A stretch of DNA of 64,000 bases, taken from assembly GCA_964572605.1 (NCBI GenBank), contig CAZNFG010000002.1, forward strand, positions 26,895 to 90,894, in the 5' to 3' direction. Below, in pieces: positions 9,548-18,052 of the stretch (positions are counted from its first letter, which is position 1; every line of letters begins with the position of its first letter). Under the pieces are notes generated by a model. That model was not told the DNA's origin. It worked only from the letters and a program-made list of their open reading frames with translations, and made no database searches. A program made the position numbers and the translations under genes. This DNA comes from an uncultured Eubacteriales bacterium (GTDB taxonomy: Bacteria; Bacillota; Clostridia; TANB77; UBA1234).

Positions 9548-9624
9548 GGATCTTTAGCTCAGTTGGTTAGAGCAACCGGCTCATAACCGGTTGGTCCGGG
9601 GTTCGAGTCCCTGAAGATCCACCA
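9548..9624 (+). tRNA. tRNA with CAT anticodon (elongator Met or, more likely, lysidine-modified tRNA-Ile2)
   Basis: 77-nt cloverleaf: acceptor ggatctt/aagatcc, anticodon loop ctCATaa, T-arm ggttcgagtcc, encoded CCA. The sequence closely resembles the Bacillus tRNA-Ile(CAU) as recalled from memory. Confidence 0.85.
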
Positions 9625-9644
9625 TGACTTTTTTTATATTTTTT

Positions 9645-9729
<85 letters not shown>

Positions 9730-9919: not shown

Positions 9920-11452
9920 ATGAAGAAAATATTATTAGTTTTGGCCATGTTAACAGTTTTATTAATGACAGGTTGTAATAAAGACAAACCAACTCAAATT
10001 TATAAAACACAGGAAAATCAAAATAATCAGCAAGAACAAATAGAATATAGTAATTTGGCGGATGTAAAAATAGATTCACCATTTGTATCTGTGCTAGAAA
10101 ATATATATGATAACCATGTACTACCTGACGGAACAGTGTTATATAATATTGGGAGTACCGAACAATTAGTTAAAAACAGGTTTGCAATATTTGATATTGA
10201 TTCTGATGGTAAAGATGAATTAATTTTTTCATATAACAGTGGAGCAATGGCAGATATTAGAGACTTTATATTTGATTATGATGAAAATACACAAAAAGTT
10301 TTACTAGAAGCTGAGTTTAATCCAAGCCCTATTACTATATATTATGATGATGGAATAGTTTATGAAAAAGGAAAACATAATCAAGGAAACGAAGACCCAT
10401 GGCCTTATTCATTGTTTAAATATAATGCCGTGTTGGATAAATATGAAGATGTCGAGAAAAATACTGAGATAAAAGGAAAAGAGATAGATATTCAGTTTAA
10501 GGATTTTACAAAGGAAAATATAGATTTGTTGAGAAAAGACAATACTTATGTTAATTTGTCAGATTCATATTATTTTAATGACTATAAAACATTAGAAATG
10601 AATGAAATAGTACCTATTAGGATTTGTTTAGTTGATGAGAATAGTGCAATACATGTTGAGAGGTATGGCGAGGACGTTTCAATGATGTTGCCAATAGAAA
10701 AATGTGAGAATGTTGACGAAGAAAGAATTATTTATTCTGATTATGGAATTGAAAAAATGCTAAGTACTGGAAAAATTCGTGTTGGTGGAATTGAAATTGA
10801 TACAATTCATCCTGATACACTAATAGAAGAAAATTTTAATTACAAAGAAGAAGTGGCACATTTTTACAATATGGGTTTGCAAAAGATATATGAAGTAGAA
10901 TTAGATAATGATACATCAACAAAAGAATTGCTTGTATATTCACACTTCTCATATCCTTGGGATTCATATGAATATCCATATTTGGTTAAATTTGAAAACG
11001 GTATAGCAACTAATATGGGGTTATATGAAAATGAGAATATAATGCAAATAGGACCATATAAAAATTTATTAACAGATGGTTGGAATTCTGATATTGAAGG
11101 ATATTTTTCAAATGTTTTAATGGGTTATTATGTATATGATAAAGAATTAGGATTAATTCATGTTGAAAAAATGGCAAATGGAGATAATATCAAAGATGTT
11201 GATATTAATGCGTTAACTGATTGTAAACTTTCGCATGACATAAATTTTGGTGTTGTTGGAGAAGGTAATAATCCTTATAATAACAAGCTATCATATTCTA
11301 CTTGGACGTATGATGAGAATTCGGAAGTAAAAACATTAAAAAAAGGAACAATAGTAAAAATTATTGAAATAATCGATGACTATGGCAATTTCATTGGAGA
11401 AACACAAGATGGAACAAGCTATGGATTCTTTAATTTTGCTGGAAGACCTTAA
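9920..11452 (+). CDS. lipoprotein of unknown function (signal peptide with lipobox LMTGC)
   Basis: N-terminal MKKILLVLAMLTVLLMTGC is a classic lipoprotein signal. RBS aggtaggag. No catalytic motif recognised. Confidence 0.6.
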   Translation: MKKILLVLAMLTVLLMTGCNKDKPTQIYKTQENQNNQQEQIEYSNLADVKIDSPFVSVLENIYDNHVLPDGTVLYNIGSTEQLVKNRFAIFDIDSDGKDELIFSYNSGAMADIRDFIFDYDENTQKVLLEAEFNPSPITIYYDDGIVYEKGKHNQGNEDPWPYSLFKYNAVLDKYEDVEKNTEIKGKEIDIQFKDFTKENIDLLRKDNTYVNLSDSYYFNDYKTLEMNEIVPIRICLVDENSAIHVERYGEDVSMMLPIEKCENVDEERIIYSDYGIEKMLSTGKIRVGGIEIDTIHPDTLIEENFNYKEEVAHFYNMGLQKIYEVELDNDTSTKELLVYSHFSYPWDSYEYPYLVKFENGIATNMGLYENENIMQIGPYKNLLTDGWNSDIEGYFSNVLMGYYVYDKELGLIHVEKMANGDNIKDVDINALTDCKLSHDINFGVVGEGNNPYNNKLSYSTWTYDENSEVKTLKKGTIVKIIEIIDDYGNFIGETQDGTSYGFFNFAGRP

Positions 11453-11561
11453 AAATGTACTTGCACATTTAAAATTCCTATGGTATTCTTTGGCTATTGC
11501 TTACATTTGTTTCATTTAGCATAATTAGTTCGTATTTTTACCAGTTTAGTCCACCATTAAG

Positions 11562-11593
11562 AGTAGTTTACGTATCGTAAACTACTTTTTTTG
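11562..11593 (+). terminator. Rho-independent terminator after the lipoprotein gene
   Basis: Perfect hairpin agtagtttacg-ta-tcgtaaactact followed by TTTTTTT. Confidence 0.8.
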
Positions 11594-11635
11594 TGCCCTT
11601 TTGGAAGAAATATTAAGAGCAGCAAGGGAAAGAGG

Positions 11636-11696
11636 TAGTTTAAAATGGTTTAAATCAGTTTAAACTAGTTTACAATAATTTAAGTTAGTTTGAGCT
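11636..11696 (+). repeat. six tandem copies of a 10-bp unit (consensus TAGTTTAAAN), helically phased
   Basis: tagtttaaaa tggtttaaat cagtttaaac tagtttacaa taatttaagt tagtttgagc. Confidence 0.6.
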
Positions 11697-11699
11697 TTT

Positions 11700-11741
11700 T
11701 GTGTAATATTACACAAAGTCTGTGTAATTTGCTGTGTAATA
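11700..11741 (+). promoter_or_regulatory. perfect 16-bp palindrome TGTGTAATATTACACA plus two further TGTGTAAT direct copies (operator-like)
   Basis: tgtgtaatattacacaaagtctgtgtaatttgctgtgtaat sits upstream of ORF 11840. Confidence 0.5.
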
Positions 11742-11839
11742 AAATGTGTTTTTTAATAAAACTAATGAAAATTTATAAAAAAAAGGGTCAAAAATTAGAT
11801 ATTTTTTAGAAAAATTATAATAAATTTGTATAAAATTTA

Positions 11840-12361
11840 ATGATACAAAAAATGAATATGAAAATTCTAGAAACCAAGTGGAAATACTTGGTTTCTTTAT
11901 TACTTAGAACTAGGTTTCAACTTTTTGAGAATTTGCTTAAAGCAAATACATATACTGAAATAATTACTATACCAGATTTAAATTTAATTAAAGATGGTAA
12001 AGTTCATATTATATTTTCTGATTTTCATAATGAAAAAGAATATTTTTATAATGCTAATTTGTATAAGCTACATTTAGAGAATATAGTTAGGCTACTAAAG
12101 GAGTATAAGAATTATAAAGTTTATATAAATACTAGTGAAAAAGATGATGGATATTCTTTATATATTAAAGAGGACTTTGGCGCAATTGTAGCAAAAAATT
12201 CAACACCTTCAGTAATTCTTACTATTAAAGAAAGTAATTTAAACGCTGCTTTCTTAGATCATTTTAATAACAAAATAGATTTTAAAACGTATGATGATGA
12301 GAAAAGAAAATCAGTAATTAAAAAACTTAAGCAAATTATCAACAAATTGAGTAAAAAATAA
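11840..12361 (+). CDS. hypothetical protein
   Basis: 173-aa ORF, very AT-rich, no recognisable domain. Lies downstream of the repeat and palindrome region. Confidence 0.4.
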   Translation: MIQKMNMKILETKWKYLVSLLLRTRFQLFENLLKANTYTEIITIPDLNLIKDGKVHIIFSDFHNEKEYFYNANLYKLHLENIVRLLKEYKNYKVYINTSEKDDGYSLYIKEDFGAIVAKNSTPSVILTIKESNLNAAFLDHFNNKIDFKTYDDEKRKSVIKKLKQIINKLSKK

Positions 12362-12430
12362 AGGTAGGCTTATCAAATACGTATCGCTATTTCTTAATGC
12401 TAAGTAACGTATACTTAATATTGAAACCCA

Positions 12431-12459
12431 TTGACATTATTTACCTATAGTTGTATAAT
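12431..12459 (+). promoter_or_regulatory. consensus sigma-A promoter (TTGACA-17-TATAAT)
   Basis: ttgacattatttacctatagttgtataat is a perfect -35 and -10 with a 17-nt spacer, upstream of the leader peptide and the ABC transporter operon. Confidence 0.75.
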
Positions 12460-12534
12460 ACCATTATCAGTGAAAAATAAACAATTCACACAAGGCTAGT
12501 TCTAGCCTAAGAAAAAATGAAAGGAAAATGAATT

Positions 12535-12618
12535 ATGAATTTATACATGACAAGAAATTTACATCATACTCATCATCACATTACATGTGGTTTCTTTGTC
12601 GTGTGTGAAATGAGGTAA
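12535..12618 (+). CDS. candidate His-rich leader peptide (MNLYMTRNLHHTHHHITCGFFVVCEMR) of a ribosome-mediated attenuator
   Basis: 27-codon ORF with RBS aaggaaaa 7 nt upstream. It carries five His codons within seven codons (cat cat act cat cat cac). An intrinsic terminator follows, and it sits just upstream of an amino-acid ABC transporter. Confidence 0.45.
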   Translation: MNLYMTRNLHHTHHHITCGFFVVCEMR

Positions 12619-12656
12619 TTTTCTAAGTTATATTACTAATATCTAACACATATATA

Positions 12657-12690
12657 CACAAGGCAACCACTTGCCTTGTGTTTTTTTGTT
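12657..12690 (+). terminator. attenuator-type intrinsic terminator between the leader ORF and the ABC transporter genes
   Basis: cacaaggcaa-ccac-ttgccttgtg hairpin followed by TTTTTTTGTT. Upstream GTGTGTG and CACACA segments could form an alternative antiterminator. Confidence 0.65.
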
Positions 12691-12731
12691 ATGTTTTAAC
12701 TGTAAAATTTTAGATAAAAGGAGTAATATAT

Positions 12732-13478
12732 ATGAAAAAATTATTAATTATATGTTCGGTTTTATTGTGCGTGGTAATGTTGGTTTTTATGTTTCAAGGT
12801 GGAAAAAGTAAAGAAAGCAATATATTAAATATCGGGATAACTGATTATCCGCCAATGAACTATTATGAAAATGGAAAGCTTGTTGGCTTTGAAACAGAGT
12901 TTGCAGAAGAAGTATGCAAAGAGCTTGGAATGATTCCAAACTTTATTGAGATTGATTGGGGAAGCAAAGAAGTAGAATTAAAATCTAAAAATATTGATGC
13001 GATTTGGAATGGAATGACTTGGACAAAGGAGCGCGCAGAAAATATGCTGATGTCTAACACATACATAAGCAATAAAGGTGTTTTAGTTTTTAAAAAGGGA
13101 ACAACAAGTATAGAAAGTGTTGCTGTAGAAAAAGGATCACAAGGAGAAGCTGTGGTTGATAATGATAGCTTTTTTGATGGAAAAGAGAAAGTAAAAGTTG
13201 ATTCTATGACAAAAGGATTTTTGGAAGTAGCAACCGGAAATGTTACAGCAACATATTGCGATTATATTGCAGCGCTAGGAATGCTAGATGAAGATGGAGA
13301 CTATAAAGATTACGAAATTTGGGGAGGTTATTCGGGAGAATCAGAACAATTTGCTATTGGATTTAGAAAAGAAGATATAGAGCTATGTAACAAAATCAAC
13401 AAAGTTATATCTGAGATGAAAAATGATGGTAGATTAAAGAAGATAGCAAATAAATATGGATTAGGTGATTTGTTATGA
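12732..13478 (+). CDS. polar amino-acid ABC transporter substrate-binding lipoprotein
   Basis: Signal peptide, SBP_bac_3-like sequence (DAIWNGMTWTKER, FAIGFRKED). Operon with a permease and an ATPase. Confidence 0.8.
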   Translation: MKKLLIICSVLLCVVMLVFMFQGGKSKESNILNIGITDYPPMNYYENGKLVGFETEFAEEVCKELGMIPNFIEIDWGSKEVELKSKNIDAIWNGMTWTKERAENMLMSNTYISNKGVLVFKKGTTSIESVAVEKGSQGEAVVDNDSFFDGKEKVKVDSMTKGFLEVATGNVTATYCDYIAALGMLDEDGDYKDYEIWGGYSGESEQFAIGFRKEDIELCNKINKVISEMKNDGRLKKIANKYGLGDLL

Positions 13479-14110
13479 GTTTTTGGGAGATAAATGCAAA
13501 ATTACTTGGAGGATTTGTAATTAATATTAAATTATTTTTATTAGTCCTCCTAATCTCCCTACCTTTAGGATTAATATTTTGCTATATTCGAATGGGAAAA
13601 TTAAAATTAATTATGCAAACAGTAATATGGTTTTTACGTGGAAGTCCACTAATGATACAACTTTTCATGGTTATGTACGTTCCTGGGTTATTATTCAACA
13701 CTCCAATAAAATCAAGATTTGCAGTTGCAGTAATAGCTATGAGTATAAATTACGCAGCATATCTTTGTGAAATATTTAGAGGAGGCATAGAAAATATTCC
13801 AAAAGGTCAATGGGAAGCAGGAAAAGTATTAGGACTATCTAAATGGACAATTGAGCGTAAAATTATTTTGCCGCAAGTCATAAAGAAATGTTTGCCGCCA
13901 TTTGGAAATGAGCTATTAAATCTTATTAAAGACACAACTCTTGCTCGTGTTATTGCAGTACCTGAAATGTTGATGGCAAGTACAGAATTCACTACAAAAG
14001 GATTAATTTGGCCGCTATTTTATACAACTGTATTTTTCTTGGGTGCAACTGCAATTCTTACATACATATTGAAATATCTTGAGAGGAGGTTTGCGTATTA
14101 TGAAGGTTAA
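13475..14110 (+). CDS. polar amino-acid ABC transporter permease (HisM/GlnP family)
   Basis: Five-TM permease with the EAA-like loop region ARVIAVPEMLMAST. Overlaps the SBP stop. Confidence 0.8.
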   Translation: MSFWEINAKLLGGFVINIKLFLLVLLISLPLGLIFCYIRMGKLKLIMQTVIWFLRGSPLMIQLFMVMYVPGLLFNTPIKSRFAVAVIAMSINYAAYLCEIFRGGIENIPKGQWEAGKVLGLSKWTIERKIILPQVIKKCLPPFGNELLNLIKDTTLARVIAVPEMLMASTEFTTKGLIWPLFYTTVFFLGATAILTYILKYLERRFAYYEG

Positions 14111-14795
14111 AAATTTATCCAAAAGTTTTGGATCACTTAAAGTTCTTGATAATTTATCTTTTGAAACTAATGAAAACCTAGCAATTGTTGGAGATAGTGG
14201 TAGTGGAAAAACTACTTTACTTAGGATACTTGCTGGACTTGAAACAGCTGATTGTGGAAAAATAGAGTACAAAGGCAAAATAGGTTTTGTATTTCAAGAT
14301 TTTAATTTATTTCCACATATGACTGTATGGGAAAATATAACGCTTGCAGCACCAAATGCAGATGAAAATTTACTTAAAAAATTAGGGTTGGAACAAAAGA
14401 AAAATGAATATCCATATACTTTGAGTGGTGGACAAAAACAAAGAGTTGCAATAGCAAGAGCTTTAGCACTAAATCCATACCCATCGAGTCTTTCTGGTGG
14501 TCAAAAGCAACGTGTAGCTATTGCTCGTGCATTATGCATGCAGCCTAAAATATTATGTTTTGATGAACCAACATCTGCGCTTGATCCAACACTTAGGGAT
14601 AGTATTGCAGAACTAATAAATAATCTAAATAAAATTTGTATAATCGTAACGCATGATATTGAATTTTCTAAGAAAATTGCAAAACGAAAATTAATTATAG
14701 AACCAAAAAAATATTCACAACAATCTAATGTAAAAAATCTTAGTAATATAAAAAAAGACAATTATAAAGTTAAAAAAATAAAGTTAAGGGTTTAG
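14100..14795 (+). CDS. amino-acid ABC transporter ATP-binding protein with an internal tandem duplication of the [15 protein letters not shown] signature segment
   Basis: Walker A GDSGSGKTT, Q-loop, two consecutive [15 protein letters not shown] copies (14421-14534), Walker B ILCFDEPTSALD and H-loop VTHD. Start MKVKNL at ATG 14100 has an RBS gagaggagg. Confidence 0.75.
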   Translation: MKVKNLSKSFGSLKVLDNLSFETNENLAIVGDSGSGKTTLLRILAGLETADCGKIEYKGKIGFVFQDFNLFPHMTVWENITLAAPNADENLLKKLGLEQKKNEYPYTLSGGQKQRVAIARALALNPYPSSLSGGQKQRVAIARALCMQPKILCFDEPTSALDPTLRDSIAELINNLNKICIIVTHDIEFSKKIAKRKLIIEPKKYSQQSNVKNLSNIKKDNYKVKKIKLRV

Positions 14796-14945
14796 TAAGA
14801 CTTATGAAATACAATGTTTTATATAAGGAGAATTAAGATTTTATCTTAATTTTCTTTTTTTAATTGAAAAAAATATTGTTTTGAAGCTAAATAAGATATA
14901 ATTAGTATAAGATTATTTCTTAATTTTTTAACTTTGGAGGAAAAT

Positions 14946-15512
14946 ATGAATAAAAATTTAACATTAGTAATTGTTTTAATTGCAATTTTAATAGTAACTG
15001 GAGGAATATGGGTTGTAAAAAACAATCCGAAAACCGAAAATAAAGTTGATGTACAAGTCAATACAAATCTCGAAGAAAATAAAGAAATAGAAGAAACAGA
15101 AGAATTAAACTCAGATTTTGAATTAGAGATTACTCAAGAATTTAGTTTAGATGATTTAATGGAATATAACTTGCCAATGATTATAGATTTTGGAGCTGAT
15201 ACTTGTTATCCATGTATGTTAATGGCTGCAGATTTTGAAAAGGTACATGAGGAAACAAAAGGACAAGCAATACTTAAATTTTTAGATGTATGGAAATATC
15301 CTGAATTAGCTGAGGGCTATCCACTTAATCTAATACCTGCACAATTACTTATAAATAGTGACGGTACACCTTATGCACCAGAAAATGCTGAAGAACTTGG
15401 ATTGGAATTCTATATAGATGAAAATGAAAATCATATACTTACAATGCATGTAGGTCCTTTAACGTATGAAGAAATGAAAACAATGCTTAAGGAGATGGGA
15501 TTAGATGAATGA
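14946..15512 (+). CDS. membrane-anchored thioredoxin-family thiol-disulfide oxidoreductase (CYPC active site; ResA/TlpA/StoA-like)
   Basis: N-terminal TM anchor, acidic linker and a thioredoxin fold with GADTCYPCM. Coupled to ccdA; its stop overlaps the next start. Confidence 0.7.
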   Translation: MNKNLTLVIVLIAILIVTGGIWVVKNNPKTENKVDVQVNTNLEENKEIEETEELNSDFELEITQEFSLDDLMEYNLPMIIDFGADTCYPCMLMAADFEKVHEETKGQAILKFLDVWKYPELAEGYPLNLIPAQLLINSDGTPYAPENAEELGLEFYIDENENHILTMHVGPLTYEEMKTMLKEMGLDE

Positions 15513-16195
15513 AATACTTGAAATAATGTCAGAAAGCATTAAAAATAATTTTTGGCTTGCTCCAATAATATCTATATTAGCAGGTGTTTTGACATCATTT
15601 TTACCATGTTCTTTATCTAGTGTGCCGTTAATTATTGGCTTTGTTGGAGGAACTCGGAATAAGCGATACAAAAAAAGCTTTTAAATTATCTGTAGTTTTT
15701 GCACTCGGCATGGCAATTACTTTAACAATATTAGGAGCGCTTGCTTCAATATTAGGAAGAATAGTGCAAGGTGGAGGCTACTTGTGGTATATAATACTTG
15801 GAATATTAATGGTAATGATGGCATTACAAACATTTGAATTAGTTACTTTTATAAAGCCAACAAATTTTCAAACAAAAAATACTAAAAAAGGATATTTAGG
15901 AGCCTTGATAACAGGAATACTTGCTGGAGTTTTCTCGTCACCTTGTTCTACACCTGTTTTAATAGTATTACTTGCTTTAGTTGCTAATAGTGGGAATATG
16001 TTATGGGGAATATTGTTACTTTTATTATATTCAGTAGGTCATAGTGTTTTAGTAATAATTGCAGGAACATCTATTGGAACAGTAAAAAAAATAACTCATA
16101 GTGAAAAATACGGAAAAATTAGTAATGTTTTAAAATACGTTATGGGATCAATAATCTTATTAATAGCTTTTTATATGTTTTATTTAGGGTTTTAG
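15505..16195 (+). CDS. ccdA: cytochrome c-type biogenesis / thiol-disulfide electron transporter CcdA (DsbD family); frame interrupted at CGG 15655-15657
   Basis: N-terminal part MNEILEIM...LPCSLSSVPLIIGFVGGT in frame A ends after cgg at 15655. The conserved continuation GISDTKKAFKLS...SPCSTP is in the +1 frame and begins with GGA at 15656. Confidence 0.7.
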
Positions 16196-16243
16196 TAATA
16201 CGAAATATAATAAAAAATTTCAACTTATTAAGGAGAATTAAAT

Positions 16244-17020
16244 ATGGATATTTTTTTAATTTTACTAATTCCATTCTTGGGAGCATGTTTAGGTTCAGCA
16301 ATAGTATTTTTAATTAAAGATAATATAAATAACAGATTTGAAAAATTATTAATAGGATTTGCTTCTGGAGTTATGATTTCTGCTTCTGTATTTTCACTTT
16401 TACTTCCATCAATAGAAAGAGCAGAAGAACAAAAAATTATTTCATGGTTACCAGCATCTATAGGTTTTGTTTTAGGAATACTATTTTTACTTGTATTAGA
16501 TTTATTAATTCCACACTTACATATAAAAAATAATGAACAAGAAGGAATGAAAACAAAGTTCAAAAGGACAACAATGATAGCATTGGCAATTACATTACAT
16601 AACATTCCTGAAGGAATGGCTGTTGGTGTAGCACTTGCTGGAGTCTTTTTTGGAAATGAAGTGTTATTAATGTCAAGTGCAATTGTACTTGCAATTGGAA
16701 TGGCAATTCAAAACTTTCCTGAAGGTGTCATTATTTCTATGCCTTTAAAAGCAGAAGGAAAAAGTAAATTAAAATCTTTTGGATATGGAGTACTTTTTGC
16801 AACTGTTGAACCAATTGCCTCTATTATTACAATGTTTCTTGCAAGTTTAGTTATTCCAATATTTCCATACGTTTTATCTTTTGCGGCAGGTGCAATGATA
16901 TATGTGGTAGTTGAAGATTTAATACCTCAATTACAAGAAAACAAACACTCAAATGTTGGTGTTATAGGAGTGGCAATAGGTTTTGTAATAATGATGATAT
17001 TAAATATTGGGTTAGCATAA
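16244..17020 (+). CDS. ZIP-family metal transporter (ZupT-like)
   Basis: Eight-TM protein with the HNIPEGMAVGVALAG and QNFPEG motifs typical of ZIP transporters. Confidence 0.8.
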   Translation: MDIFLILLIPFLGACLGSAIVFLIKDNINNRFEKLLIGFASGVMISASVFSLLLPSIERAEEQKIISWLPASIGFVLGILFLLVLDLLIPHLHIKNNEQEGMKTKFKRTTMIALAITLHNIPEGMAVGVALAGVFFGNEVLLMSSAIVLAIGMAIQNFPEGVIISMPLKAEGKSKLKSFGYGVLFATVEPIASIITMFLASLVIPIFPYVLSFAAGAMIYVVVEDLIPQLQENKHSNVGVIGVAIGFVIMMILNIGLA

Positions 17021-17848: not shown

Positions 17849-17855
17849 AATATTA

Positions 17856-18052
17856 ACCCTACGAGGTGCGATTAGTTTGAGTGTTATTTAGAACCAACAC
17901 TAAGATTTAAGGGAGTTTGGTACTTCGAGTATTTAGTGTATGCTCAACCGTGAAAACTGATTGAGAAACCAATAAAATACTTGGGAGAACACCCACCTGT
18001 GTATGCAGGCTCTTAAATTAGCTCAGATGTACGGCCTATGTAGGGTTTTTAT
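17856..18052 (+). ncRNA. candidate structured small RNA (about 195 nt, 6S-RNA-like), closed by a long-range ccctac/gtaggg helix and a T-run
   Basis: It has its own promoter and no ORF. The 5' ccctac pairs with the 3' gtaggg, and tttttattt follows. Internal hairpins are present (gtacttcgagtat; cctgtgtatgcagg). It is convergent with the minus-strand gene. Confidence 0.35.

What the first reader, a model, noticed from the sequence alone, without database searches (positions are those of the whole stretch)
12431..12731. Histidine-codon-rich leader peptide plus intrinsic terminator upstream of a polar amino-acid ABC transporter: candidate ribosome-mediated attenuator in a Firmicute
A perfect TTGACA-17-TATAAT promoter at 12431-12459 is followed by a 27-codon ORF (12535-12618), MNLYMTRNLHHTHHHITCGFFVVCEMR, with RBS aaggaaaa 7 nt upstream. 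It has five His codons within seven codons, using both cat and cac. Then comes a strong terminator, cacaaggcaa/ttgccttgtg plus T7, at 12657-12690. The GU- and CA-rich segments gtcgtgtgtg and cacatatatacaca could form an alternative antiterminator. The downstream operon (12732-14795) encodes a His/Gln/Arg-type SBP, permease and ATPase. Leader-peptide attenuation is classic in Proteobacteria, whereas Firmicutes usually use T-boxes for amino-acid control. No T-box sequence is present here.
Basis: partly seen in the sequence, partly recalled or inferred. Interest (0 to 1): 0.6.

Follow-up and report, generated by a model that had tools for sequence, protein, structure and literature searches.

The report
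Histidine leader-peptide attenuator of a transporter
A short histidine-rich leader gene and terminator lie in front of a probable histidine-uptake operon in an anaerobic spore-forming Firmicute. They are conserved in related bacteria and have the structure of a classical ribosome-sensing attenuator, so this is a new example of a known switch, not a new kind.

Summary
There is a 12/12 sigma-70 promoter, a 27-codon ORF with HHTHHH, an 11-bp terminator with a T7 tract, and an SBP-permease-ATPase operon.

- **Not chance.** Eight orthologous loci (SBP 61-77% identical) carry the same leader. Two more show its 3' part at a contig edge, and one ortholog lacks it.
- **Conserved elements.** These are the promoter, the RBS, the reading frame (kept by a compensated frameshift in one locus), the His run, the 11-13 codons from His run to stop, and a terminator whose stem sequence changes while pairing is kept.
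- **Main antiterminator.** GUGGUUUCUUUGU in the ORF pairs with ACAAGGCAACCAC, the terminator 5' arm plus loop. This helix is 90.5% paired across loci, with compensatory changes.
- **Histidine link.** A 44%-identical homologue carries a one-mismatch HisR operator. Some orthologous operons include a histidine-racemase-like gene.
- **Precedent.** No Rfam family matches. Ashniev et al. 2022 predicted His-leader attenuators in Firmicutes, but only for biosynthetic his operons.

Verdict: a real element, a new member of a known kind, of moderate interest. Two further conserved long-range pairings remain unexplained.

The parts
12431..12459 (+). Sigma-70 promoter, TTGACA-17-TATAAT
   Evidence: 12/12 match. 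A TTGACA -35 with a good -10 sits at the same place in all 7 full-length orthologous leaders.
12463..12483 (+). 5' half of an outer long-range pairing (core AACAGUUAA in relatives, AUCAGUGAA here)
   Evidence: Complementary to the roughly 20 nt just after the U tract. Duplex z is -2.1 to -5.0 in 6 of 7 loci but only -1.0 in the window. Role unknown.
12487..12508 (+). Segment 0: a 5' copy of the terminator 5' arm (CACACAAGGC), locally folded as hairpin AGGCUAG/CUAGCCU
   Evidence: Complementary to the terminator 3' arm, -15.5 kcal/mol, z -3.3. The same holds in 6 of 7 loci, including L066, whose terminator sequence differs.
12521..12528 (+). Ribosome-binding site of the leader ORF (AAGGAAAA)
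   Evidence: GAAAGG(A/G) lies 8-10 nt before the ATG in all full-length loci.
12535..12618 (+). Leader peptide ORF, 27 codons, MNLYMTRNLHHTHHHITCGFFVVCEMR
   Evidence: The ORF is kept at 26-27 codons in 7 full-length loci. There are 11-13 codons from the His run to the stop. L006 keeps the frame through a +1/-1 pair of indels.
12562..12579 (+). Regulatory codons CAT CAT ACT CAT CAT CAC (His10, 11, 13, 14, 15)
   Evidence: The core CAT ACT CAT CAT CAC (H-T-H-H-H) is invariant in 8 loci. The first CAT of this run (His10) varies: it is AAA in L001 and AAT in L005. L068 has CAT CAT CAT CAC. This is the only His cluster of its kind in the window.
12539..12565 (+). Segment 1 (anti-antiterminator 5' strand), lying in the 5' half of the ORF
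   Evidence: Pairs with segment 2, -23.6 kcal/mol, z -5.1. 81.9% of cells are paired across loci against 37-59% for slid controls, and 6 pairs change on both sides.
12584..12618 (+). Segment 2 (ORF 3' half, core GUGGUUUCUUUGU 12587-12599), which pairs with either segment 1 or segment 3
   Evidence: Its nucleotide sequence is kept in L006 even where the reading frame is shifted.
12639..12670 (+). Segment 3: spacer plus terminator 5' arm and loop (core ACAAGGCAACCAC 12658-12670)
   Evidence: The 2:3 duplex is -22.4 kcal/mol, z -2.8. RNAalifold picks this helix as the consensus. It is 90.5% paired against 34-59% for slid controls, 5 pairs have double changes, and no shuffle of 500 reaches its covariation score. 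The conserved loop CCAC pairs with the conserved GUGG.
12656..12687 (+). Intrinsic terminator (segments 3:4): ACACAAGGCAA-CCAC-UUGCCUUGUGU, with a T run at 12681-12687 whose first T closes the stem
   Evidence: Hairpin energy is -15.4 kcal/mol. Every orthologue has a hairpin plus U tract here with differing stems: CACAAGGC, GGACGCAGG, GAACGCAAG, CACAGG.
12688..12706 (+). 3' half of the outer long-range pairing (UUAACUGU core)
   Evidence: It is also present at the contig edge of L070.
12732..13478 (+). Substrate-binding protein, polar amino-acid family (probable HisX)
   Evidence: PF00497. Homologue P0085 (44% identical) lies behind a one-mismatch HisR operator. The best solved relative is 4ohn.
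13475..14110 (+). ABC permease (probable HisY)
   Evidence: HEQRo_perm_3TM above its cut-off.
14100..14795 (+). ABC ATPase (probable HisZ*), carrying a 23-residue in-frame extra segment with a second LSGGQ signature
   Evidence: The start at ATG 14100 is inferred from orthologues.

Best explanation
This is a ribosome-mediated (leader-peptide) transcription attenuator that senses charged tRNA-His and controls a probable histidine-uptake ABC operon (hisXYZ*-like).

**Starting point.** Transcription starts a few bases after the -10 box at 12459. The leader RNA carries a translated 27-codon ORF with five His codons.

**When His-tRNA is plentiful, or the ORF is not translated.**
- The ribosome runs through to the stop codon.
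- Segment 1 (12539-12565, together with the His codons themselves) re-pairs with segment 2 (12584-12618).
- The terminator arms (12656-12666 and 12671-12681) are then free to form the hairpin, and RNA polymerase stops at the U tract (12681-12687).

**When His-tRNA is scarce.**
- The ribosome stalls with one of the first four His codons in its A site.
- It covers segment 1 and the His run but leaves segment 2 free.
- Segment 2 pairs with segment 3, which is the spacer plus the terminator 5' arm and loop.
- The terminator cannot form, and polymerase reads into the transporter genes.

**What is shown.** The sequence elements, their conservation, the mutually exclusive pairings, the compensatory changes and the gene context.

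**What is inferred.** Translation of the ORF, stalling at the His codons, the timing between ribosome and polymerase, and histidine as the transported substrate.
For: - **Complete anatomy in the window.** Promoter, RBS, ORF, His run, terminator and operon are all present.
- **Conservation across loci.** The His-run leader occurs in 8 other distinct loci with SBP 61-77% identical: L001/2, L003/4/14, L005, L006/7, L064, L065, L066, L068. L069 and L070 show its 3' parts. Upstream neighbours differ, so the leader travels with the operon.
- **The peptide itself is not conserved.** Outside (H)HTHHH the peptide varies and the Cys residues are not kept. In L006 a +1/-1 indel pair shifts five codons yet keeps the RNA sequence and the stop position. 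This is expected if codon position and RNA structure matter, not the peptide.
- **Antiterminator (2:3).** RNAalifold chooses it as the consensus. It is 90.5% paired against 34-59% for slid controls, 5 pairs have double changes, and 0 of 500 shuffles reach its covariation score. Duplex z is -2.4 to -5.2 in all 9 loci.
- **Anti-antiterminator (1:2).** It is 81.9% paired against 37-59% for slid controls, with 6 pairs showing double changes.
- **Terminator.** A hairpin plus U tract is present in every locus, with different stem sequences.
- **Ribosome masking in the window.** Before segment 4 is made, the probability that the terminator 5' arm is paired with segment 2 is 0.00 with no ribosome. It is 0.78 and 0.71 with the A site on the first or middle His codon, and 0.00 on the last His codon.
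- **Histidine link.**
  - Homologue P0085 (44% identical) has CACTTTACTTTAATAACGTG between its -35 and -10. This is one mismatch from the HisR consensus cacTTTAnnnnnnTAAAgtg and close to published hisXYZ* sites such as tactttagtctgataacgtg.
  - The leader-bearing loci have no such site.
  - The gene after the ATPase in L003/L004/L065 has histidine racemase as its best solved relative (9cr6, E = 3e-8).
- **Rivals excluded by sequence.** No T-box or other Rfam family matches.
Against: - There are no expression data, and nothing here shows that the ORF is translated or that read-through responds to histidine.
- For five orthologues (L003, L005, L006, L064, L066), equilibrium folding of the transcript up to the terminator loop already gives 0.6-0.8 antiterminator occupancy without a ribosome; L001 gives 0.25. 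For full-length RNA the window still keeps its terminator when a ribosome is placed on the first His codon. The switch would therefore have to be kinetic.
- The stop codon lies 17 nt beyond the core of segment 2. A terminating ribosome does not cover that core as it does in the trp paradigm. With the A site on the stop codon, occupancy is 0.48.
- The His and Thr codons show no synonymous variation in 8 loci. This indicates an RNA-level constraint on top of coding. Their complementarity to the ORF 3' end can explain it, but it also leaves room for another reader of that sequence.
- Only nine related sequences were available, and the structures were derived from one of them, so the covariation statistics are weak.
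- Substrate specificity is inferred. Scores to characterised HisJ, ArgT and cystine binders are all far below their cut-offs.
Confidence: 0.8

Rival explanations
1. The conserved leader is a sensor read by something other than the ribosome. Candidates are an uncharged tRNA-His (a non-canonical T-box-like element), a small molecule or an RNA-binding protein. On this reading the invariant CAUACUCAUCAUCAC is an RNA recognition motif, and the ORF is secondary.
For: - The His and Thr codons show no synonymous change in 8 loci although the SBP is only 61-77% identical.
- The leader is highly structured (z -4.2).
- It has extra conserved long-range pairings that are not needed by the classical model.
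Against: - There is no T-box or any riboswitch match even at E<=10.
- An RBS at the correct spacing, the start codon, the reading frame and the stop position are conserved in every locus. In L006 the frame is restored by a second indel.
- The nucleotide invariance is explained by pairing of the His codons with the ORF 3' end, which co-varies in L064 and L068.
- The conserved UGGU would match an ACCA acceptor end. From my own knowledge, bacterial tRNA-His ends in CCCA.
Confidence: 0.08
2. The promoter, small ORF and terminator form an independent gene for a small His/Cys-rich peptide (for example a metal-binding peptide) or a small RNA. The transporter operon is only its neighbour.
For: - The unit has its own strong promoter and strong terminator.
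- The peptide has HHTHHH plus two Cys in the window.
- A ZIP zinc transporter gene lies 3.5 kb downstream at 16244-17020.
Against: - The peptide is not conserved outside the His run. The Cys residues are lost in L064, reduced in L066 and moved by the frame shift in L006.
- No promoter-like site lies between the terminator and the SBP start, which are only 44 nt apart.
- The unit always sits directly upstream of the same operon, whatever the upstream neighbour.
- The antiterminator overlapping the terminator is conserved and co-varies. An independent gene would not need it.
Confidence: 0.06
3. The element works at a different level. The hairpin mainly terminates transcripts reading in from upstream, and the His run is a by-product of AT-rich sequence.
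For: No terminator was predicted between the upstream gene's stop codon (12361) and the promoter.
Against: - In L001 the upstream gene is on the opposite strand, and in L005 the upstream neighbour is a tRNA, yet the leader is the same.
- His clusters of this density are expected 0.07 times per window.
- The His run is conserved across all loci.
Confidence: 0.02

Closest known systems
Classical leader-peptide attenuators of amino-acid operons in Proteobacteria (hisL-hisG, trpL, leuL, thrL, pheL; Rfam His_leader RF00514)
   Same: All share a short translated ORF with a run of cognate codons. All have a terminator preceded by mutually exclusive anti-antiterminator and antiterminator helices. The regulatory codons lie inside the 5' strand of the first helix. 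From my own knowledge, the Salmonella his leader likewise uses more than four segments.
   Different: There is no sequence or covariance-model similarity. The host is a Firmicute. There are five His codons interrupted by Thr, whereas hisL has seven in a row (own knowledge). The controlled genes encode an uptake system, not a biosynthetic pathway. The stop codon lies beyond segment 2, not within reach of it.
Candidate His-leader attenuators of Firmicutes (Ashniev et al. 2022, PMC9413887): B. cereus group, Peptostreptococcaceae plus Lutispora, Erysipelotrichales
   Same: Same phylum and same logic. Leader peptides have 3-5 His codons followed by attenuator, antiterminator and terminator hairpins. 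They occur in lineages where a HisR site or T-box is absent.
   Different: All 17 published cases precede his biosynthesis operons (Table 3; Additional file 6). Here the target is the hisXYZ*-like transporter. Their His codons sit next to the stop codon in several cases, whereas here 12 codons follow. There is no overall sequence similarity. I saw only a shared 12-mer, CATAGACACAAG, between L005 and the C. difficile hairpin, and its significance is unresolved.
T-box(His) and HisR control of hisXYZ* transporters in Firmicutes
   Same: Same regulated function and the same physiological signal, histidine supply or tRNA-His charging. The homologous transporter P0085 carries a HisR-type operator.
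   Different: The sensor is different. Here there is no T-box and no HisR consensus site in any leader-bearing locus.
Leu-rich leader-peptide attenuator of the ilv-leu operon in Staphylococcus aureus (PMC5794164)
   Same: It is precedent for ribosome-mediated attenuation in Firmicutes (abstract only).
   Different: It involves a different amino acid, controls a biosynthetic operon and has an unrelated sequence.

Membership tests
Ribosome-mediated (leader-peptide) transcription attenuator | Promoter-proximal short ORF with its own RBS | tested here: met
   ORF 12535-12618 with AGGA 9 nt upstream. The ORF and RBS are conserved in all 7 full-length loci.
Ribosome-mediated (leader-peptide) transcription attenuator | Cluster of codons for the amino acid tied to the regulated genes | tested here: met
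   5 His in 6 codons. A run of at least 4 His codons is conserved in all 9 loci. It is unique in the window.
Ribosome-mediated (leader-peptide) transcription attenuator | Intrinsic terminator between the leader ORF and the first structural gene | tested here: met
   Stem 12656-12681 and T run 12681-12687. A hairpin plus U tract is present in every locus with varying stem sequence.
Ribosome-mediated (leader-peptide) transcription attenuator | Antiterminator that overlaps the terminator 5' arm and excludes the terminator | tested here: met
   Segment 2:3 is the RNAalifold consensus. It is 90.5% paired, has 5 pairs with compensatory changes, and z is -2.4 to -5.2.
Ribosome-mediated (leader-peptide) transcription attenuator | Anti-antiterminator placed so that a ribosome stalled at the regulatory codons frees segment 2 | tested here: met
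   Segment 1:2 is 81.9% paired. Footprint masking in the window raises antiterminator occupancy from 0.00 to 0.78. In five orthologues equilibrium folding is not discriminating.
Ribosome-mediated (leader-peptide) transcription attenuator | Read-through rises on starvation for the cognate amino acid and depends on leader translation | not testable with these tools
   This needs Term-seq, reporter or in-vitro assays.
Rfam His_leader (RF00514) | Match to the covariance model at gathering score | tested here: not met
   No match at gathering score in the window or in 6 loci, and none at E<=10 in 12340-12780.
T-box leader (RF00230) | Match to the covariance model (specifier loop, T-box sequence) | tested here: not met
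   No match. The search does find a T-box elsewhere (L071 4485-4747, 115.6 bits), so the test works.
HisXYZ* histidine ABC transporter (as named in PMC9413887) | SBP-permease-ATPase operon of the polar amino-acid type | tested here: met
   PF00497 SBP, HEQRo permease and ABC ATPase in that order.
HisXYZ* histidine ABC transporter (as named in PMC9413887) | Membership of a histidine regulon (HisR site, T-box(His) or His attenuator upstream) | tested here: met
   A His-codon leader is present here. Homologue P0085 has a one-mismatch HisR site at -89, and P0015 has a three-mismatch site. Published hisXYZ* sites are similar.
HisXYZ* histidine ABC transporter (as named in PMC9413887) | Orthology to a listed HisX, or demonstrated histidine binding | not tested
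   No listed HisX sequence was available for comparison. The best solved relative, 4ohn, scores only 92 bits. Binding needs biochemistry.

The most novel reading that the evidence does not exclude
The leader may be more than a four-segment attenuator. In the read-through state it would adopt one fully nested fold.

- The terminator 5' arm is held by segment 2.
- The terminator 3' arm is held by a 5' copy of the terminator arm (segment 0, 12487-12501). This would be a double lock on both arms.
- The whole roughly 220-nt leader is closed by a helix between the transcript's 5' end (12463-12483) and the 20 nt just after the U tract (12688-12706).
- That closing helix can exist only in read-through RNA. 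It could mark, stabilise or process the productive transcript.

A more remote possibility is that the inverted repeats flank a transferable regulatory cassette. Orthologue L067 lacks the leader yet keeps AACAG-N8-CTGTG after its -10.
Probability: 0.25. Interest if true: 0.55.

Novelty: new member of a known kind. Interest (0 to 1): 0.4.

Why it matters
- It adds a third way, besides HisR repression and T-box(His), by which Firmicutes control the hisXYZ*-type histidine uptake operon. It also extends predicted His-leader attenuation in this phylum from biosynthesis to transport.
- It supports the picture of frequent replacement of regulatory devices in front of the same genes. One close orthologue has no leader, and more distant ones have HisR operators.
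- It gives a compact, well-defined RNA of about 220 nt, absent from Rfam, that could seed a covariance model for annotating metagenomic Clostridia.
- Its two extra conserved long-range pairings offer a testable question about how attenuators lock in or mark the read-through state.

Tried and rejected
- **Genome collection scan.** I scanned for AAAAACACAAGGC-N72-102-RTGRTGRTG and got 54 stretches. Only one (L014, the same contig as L003) is a true leader. The rest are chance matches or a conserved Janthinobacterium coding region. The window's own genome is not among the species representatives.
- **Metagenome scans.** The first scan, with a degenerate pattern, returned nothing although known JGI contigs should match. 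The second, with a plain pattern, gave one new leader (L064) and two chance matches inside a phage gene.
- **Cognate versus non-cognate duplex energies.** The differences were small: -15.3 against -13.9 for 2:3, -18.7 against -14.8 for 0:4, and -19.6 against -16.7 for 1:2. The sequences are too alike for this test to be informative.
- **Column-wise covariation of the terminator.** It failed to beat controls because L066 and L068 pair in a shifted register in the MAFFT alignment. I rely instead on per-sequence hairpins.
- **HisR operator in the leader.** None was found in any leader-bearing locus. The AACAGTTAA motif does not fit the HisR consensus.
- **Conserved upstream synteny.** It is rejected. 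The window's 173-aa upstream protein is unrelated to the SpoIIIAH-like protein upstream in L006.
- **Tandem duplication in the ATPase gene.** TRF found none, and the two LSGGQ copies differ in DNA.
- **Further copies of the leader.** A sequence profile of the leader found none in the window or in any other locus.
- **Organism name.** It could not be obtained from the protein cluster.
Full report
**1. What is in the window.**

- TTGACA-17-TATAAT at 12431-12459 is the only perfect promoter match in 11400-15200.
- A 27-codon ORF (12535-12618, MNLYMTRNLHHTHHHITCGFFVVCEMR) starts 9 nt after an AGGA.
- Codons 10-15 are CAT CAT ACT CAT CAT CAC.
- A hairpin of 11 pairs (12656-12681, loop CCAC) is followed by a T run at 12681-12687.
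- Forty-four bases later an operon begins. It encodes a family-3 solute-binding protein (12732-13478), a polar amino-acid permease (13475-14110) and an ABC ATPase (to 14795).
- No Rfam family matches this region, either at gathering score or at E<=10.
- In six-frame translation of the whole 64-kb window this is the only place with at least 5 His in 7 codons. Shuffles give a mean of 0.07.
- The leader folds far better than shuffles (z -4.2).
- The window has 30% G+C. It also encodes SigH, anaerobic ribonucleotide reductase NrdD/NrdG and a glmS ribozyme. The host is therefore an anaerobic spore-forming Firmicute.

**2. Conservation.**

- The SBP has a small group of close relatives, 61-77% identical, before identity drops to 49% or less.
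- Eight further distinct loci carry the same leader. Their peptides are:

| Locus | Leader peptide |
|---|---|
| L001/L002 | MNLYIASNLKHTHHHTMCGYFAMCKIS |
| L003/L004/L014 (a Clostridiales MAG) | MNLSQRNLHHTHHHIPCGFFVVCEMS |
| L005 | MNSFITRNLNHTHHHITCGFFVMCEMR |
| L006/L007 | MTYIQRNLHHTHHHKPSGFLCCVEMS |
| L064 | MIGMGKLHHTHHHTISGFLVAMVSPI |
| L066 | MTYTAKNLHHTHHHAIGWFLAVCAMS |
| L065 (cut by contig end) | ..HHTHHHIKCGFFVMCDMR |
| L068 (cut by contig end) | ..NIHHHHQTSGCFVVSIW |

- L069 and L070 begin inside the leader and show its terminator or the motif after it. A sequence profile confirms all of these and finds no other copy.
- Every full-length locus has a TTGACA -35 and a good -10. Each also has a GAAAGG-type RBS, an ORF of 26-27 codons and 11-13 codons between the His run and the stop.
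- Upstream neighbours differ. They are a divergent gene, a tRNA, a SpoIIIAH-like gene, and an unrelated gene in the window. The leader therefore belongs to the operon.
- One true orthologue (L067, 63% identical) has a promoter but no leader.

**3. The peptide is not what is conserved.**

- Outside (H)HTHHH the residues vary, and the two Cys are not kept.
- In L006 a one-base insertion (GGTTTTCTTTG) and a one-base deletion (GTGTGGAG) shift five codons. The nucleotide sequence is otherwise kept, and the frame returns in time for the same stop.
- This is the signature of a region constrained as RNA and as a reading frame of fixed length, not as a protein.

**4. The alternative structures.**

- Three pairings exist in every locus.
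- *Terminator (3:4).* Hairpin energy ranges from -10.6 to -23.8 kcal/mol. Stem sequences differ (CACAAGGC, GGACGCAGG, GAACGCAAG, CACAGG), but the loop CCA(C/U)U(C/U)G is conserved.
- *Antiterminator (2:3).* The conserved GUGGUUUCUUUGU in the 3' half of the ORF (12587-12599) pairs with ACAAGGCAACCAC, the terminator 5' arm and loop (12658-12670). This explains why the loop is conserved.
  - Total energy is -21 to -28.5 kcal/mol.
  - RNAalifold, given only the alignment, returns this helix as the consensus.
  - It is 90.5% paired across nine sequences against 34-59% when partners are slid.
  - Five pairs change on both sides, for example C-G in six loci and U-A in three.
  - No shuffle of 500 reaches its covariation score.
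- *Anti-antiterminator (1:2).* The 5' half of the ORF (12539-12565) pairs with the same segment 2 (-14 to -23.6 kcal/mol). It is 81.9% paired against 37-59%, with six pairs showing double changes.
- Duplex energies beat shuffles in 9 of 9 loci for 2:3 and in 5 of 7 for 1:2.
- The statistics rest on nine related sequences and on structures derived from the window, so they are supportive rather than conclusive.

**5. Does ribosome position decide?**

- I masked a 28-nt footprint and folded the transcript up to the terminator loop, the moment before segment 4 exists.
- In the window the terminator 5' arm is paired with segment 2 with these probabilities:

| Ribosome A site | Probability |
|---|---|
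| No ribosome | 0.00 |
| First His codon | 0.78 |
| Middle His codon | 0.71 |
| Last His codon | 0.00 |
| Stop codon | 0.48 |

- This is the behaviour expected of an attenuator in which the early His codons are the effective ones.
- L001 behaves similarly (0.25 with no ribosome, 0.75 with the A site on the first His codon).
- In five orthologues (L003, L005, L006, L064, L066) the antiterminator is already favoured at equilibrium without a ribosome (0.6-0.8). In full-length equilibrium folds long-range pairings dominate. The decision must therefore be kinetic, as in the classical systems, and cannot be settled by folding alone.
- One difference from the trp paradigm is that the stop codon lies 17 nt beyond the core of segment 2. 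Termination in histidine-replete cells would then depend on segment 1 re-pairing behind the ribosome rather than on the ribosome covering segment 2.

**6. Why the His codons do not vary.**

- CAU ACU CAU CAU CAC is identical in eight loci, although synonymous sites in the SBP gene must be saturated.
- The run is complementary to the ORF 3' end: AUGAG and GUGUGA in the window, GAUGGUGAG in L064, UGGUGAUGA in L068.
- In L068 the partner tracks the locus-specific CACCA (z down to -4.0).
- The regulatory codons are thus themselves part of the 5' strand that holds segment 2. From my own knowledge this is also true of the classical his and trp leaders.
- In L003, L006, L064 and L066 a second, untranslated CAUCAU(CAU) lies between the stop and the terminator. 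L068 has no such repeat.
- In L003, L064 and L066 this second repeat pairs with part of the same ORF 3' region in the antiterminator fold. In L006 the predicted 2:3 duplex leaves it essentially unpaired.

**7. Link to histidine.**

- The transporter proteins score far below the cut-offs of all characterised families, so the substrate is inferred.
- Ashniev et al. 2022 (PMC9413887) describe a candidate histidine ABC transporter, hisXYZ*, in Firmicutes. It is controlled by the HisR repressor (consensus cacTTTAnnnnnnTAAAgtg) or by T-box(His).
- The 44%-identical homologue P0085 has CACTTTACTTTAATAACGTG between its -35 and -10, at -89 from the start. This is one mismatch from the consensus and close to published hisXYZ* sites.
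- P0015 (49% identical) has a three-mismatch site. No leader-bearing locus has one.
- In L003/L004 the operon continues with a gene whose best solved relatives are histidine racemases (9cr6, E = 3e-8). The match covers only the N-terminal 60 residues.
- In L065 the racemase-like part is fused in one ORF with the ATPase and a D-Ala-D-Ala-dipeptidase-like segment.
- Together with the His codons, these findings make histidine the most likely substrate.

**8. Comparison with what is known.**

- The logic is that of the classical leader-peptide attenuators. The element is not a member of Rfam His_leader or T-box.
- His-leader attenuators have already been predicted in Firmicutes, but all 17 cases precede his biosynthesis operons.
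- Ribosome-mediated attenuation is also reported for the S. aureus ilv-leu operon (PMC5794164, abstract only).
- The present family is therefore a new member of a known kind. It has a new sequence family, a new target (uptake) and a new lineage (uncultured Clostridia). Only one GTDB species representative carries it.

**9. Unexplained extras.**

- A 5' copy of the terminator arm (segment 0, 12487-12501) is complementary to the terminator 3' arm in 6 of 7 loci. This includes L066, whose terminator sequence differs.
- The first roughly 25 nt of the transcript are complementary to the roughly 20 nt that immediately follow the U tract.
  - The conserved core is AACAGUUAA/UUAACUGUU, with locus-specific extensions such as CAGUUGAAA/UUUCAACUG in L003.
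  - Duplex z is -2.1 to -5.0 in 6 of 7 loci, but only -1.0 in the window.
- Both pairings nest around the antiterminator and would form only, or mainly, in read-through RNA. I cannot say what they do.

**10. Verdict.** My confidence that this is a His-sensing, ribosome-mediated attenuator of a histidine-uptake operon is about 0.8. Interest is moderate (0.4).

Noticed in passing
window 14421-14558 (within ATPase gene 14100-14795): The ATPase has two ABC signature motifs ([15 protein letters not shown] at 14421 and 14490) separated by ALNPYPSS. Orthologues have one. The two copies differ at many codon positions, so this is not a recent tandem duplication. It looks like an in-frame 23-residue insertion or a recombination with another ABC gene. 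Whether the protein is functional is unclear (TRF found nothing).
   Followed up: partly
window 12463-12483 and 12688-12706; same positions in L001, L003, L005, L006, L064, L066: The transcript's 5' end and the sequence just after the terminator U tract are complementary. The conserved core is AACAGUUAA/UUAACUGUU with locus-specific extensions. The pairing can form only in read-through RNA.
   Followed up: partly
L067 1200-1310: A true orthologue of the SBP (63% identical) has a TTGACA promoter but no leader, His ORF or terminator. Right after its -10 lies AACAGTAATATAGCTGTG, as if the two outer motifs were brought together.
   Followed up: partly
L003 2739-3350, L004 2385-2996, L065 1540-3195: A gene distantly related to histidine racemase (9cr6, E = 3e-8) follows the ATPase. 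In L065 one 551-residue ORF joins the ATPase, a VanX/VanY-like D-Ala-D-Ala peptidase segment and the racemase-like part. This hints at a link to D-amino acids.
   Followed up: partly
L074 3412-3431 (also L075-L077): CACTTTACTTTAATAACGTG, one mismatch from the HisR operator consensus, lies between the -35 and -10 of a homologous transporter operon. That operon sits next to a dockerin/CBM26 amylase gene.
   Followed up: yes
L071 4485-4747: A T-box leader (115.6 bits) lies upstream of a sodium:solute symporter gene, just downstream of the homologous ABC operon. Its specifier was not examined.
   Followed up: no
L005 leader (about 180-200) versus the C. difficile his attenuator printed in PMC9413887 Additional file 6: The two share the 12-mer CATAGACACAAG. 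In L005 it lies at the start of the terminator arm, and in C. difficile at the start of the 'attenuator hairpin'. It could be remote homology or chance.
   Followed up: no
window 22307-22457 and 17853-18050: A glmS ribozyme (82.4 bits) lies directly upstream of glmS (22498-24312), followed by glmU-like and glmM genes. A 6S RNA (76.8 bits) is also present.
   Followed up: no
window 9548-9729: tRNA-Met and tRNA-Tyr lie 20 nt apart. The short ORFs listed across them on both strands are artefacts of ORF listing.
   Followed up: no
window 14934-17020: Downstream of the transporter operon lie a membrane-anchored thioredoxin-like protein, a DsbD/CcdA-type membrane protein and a ZIP zinc transporter. 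I saw no link to the leader.
   Followed up: no
Metagenome-contig collection: A degenerate IUPAC pattern that matches known JGI contigs (L002, L003, L005) returned no hits. A plain pattern also missed them. Those contigs are apparently not in the scanned collection, so the family's abundance is underestimated.
   Followed up: no
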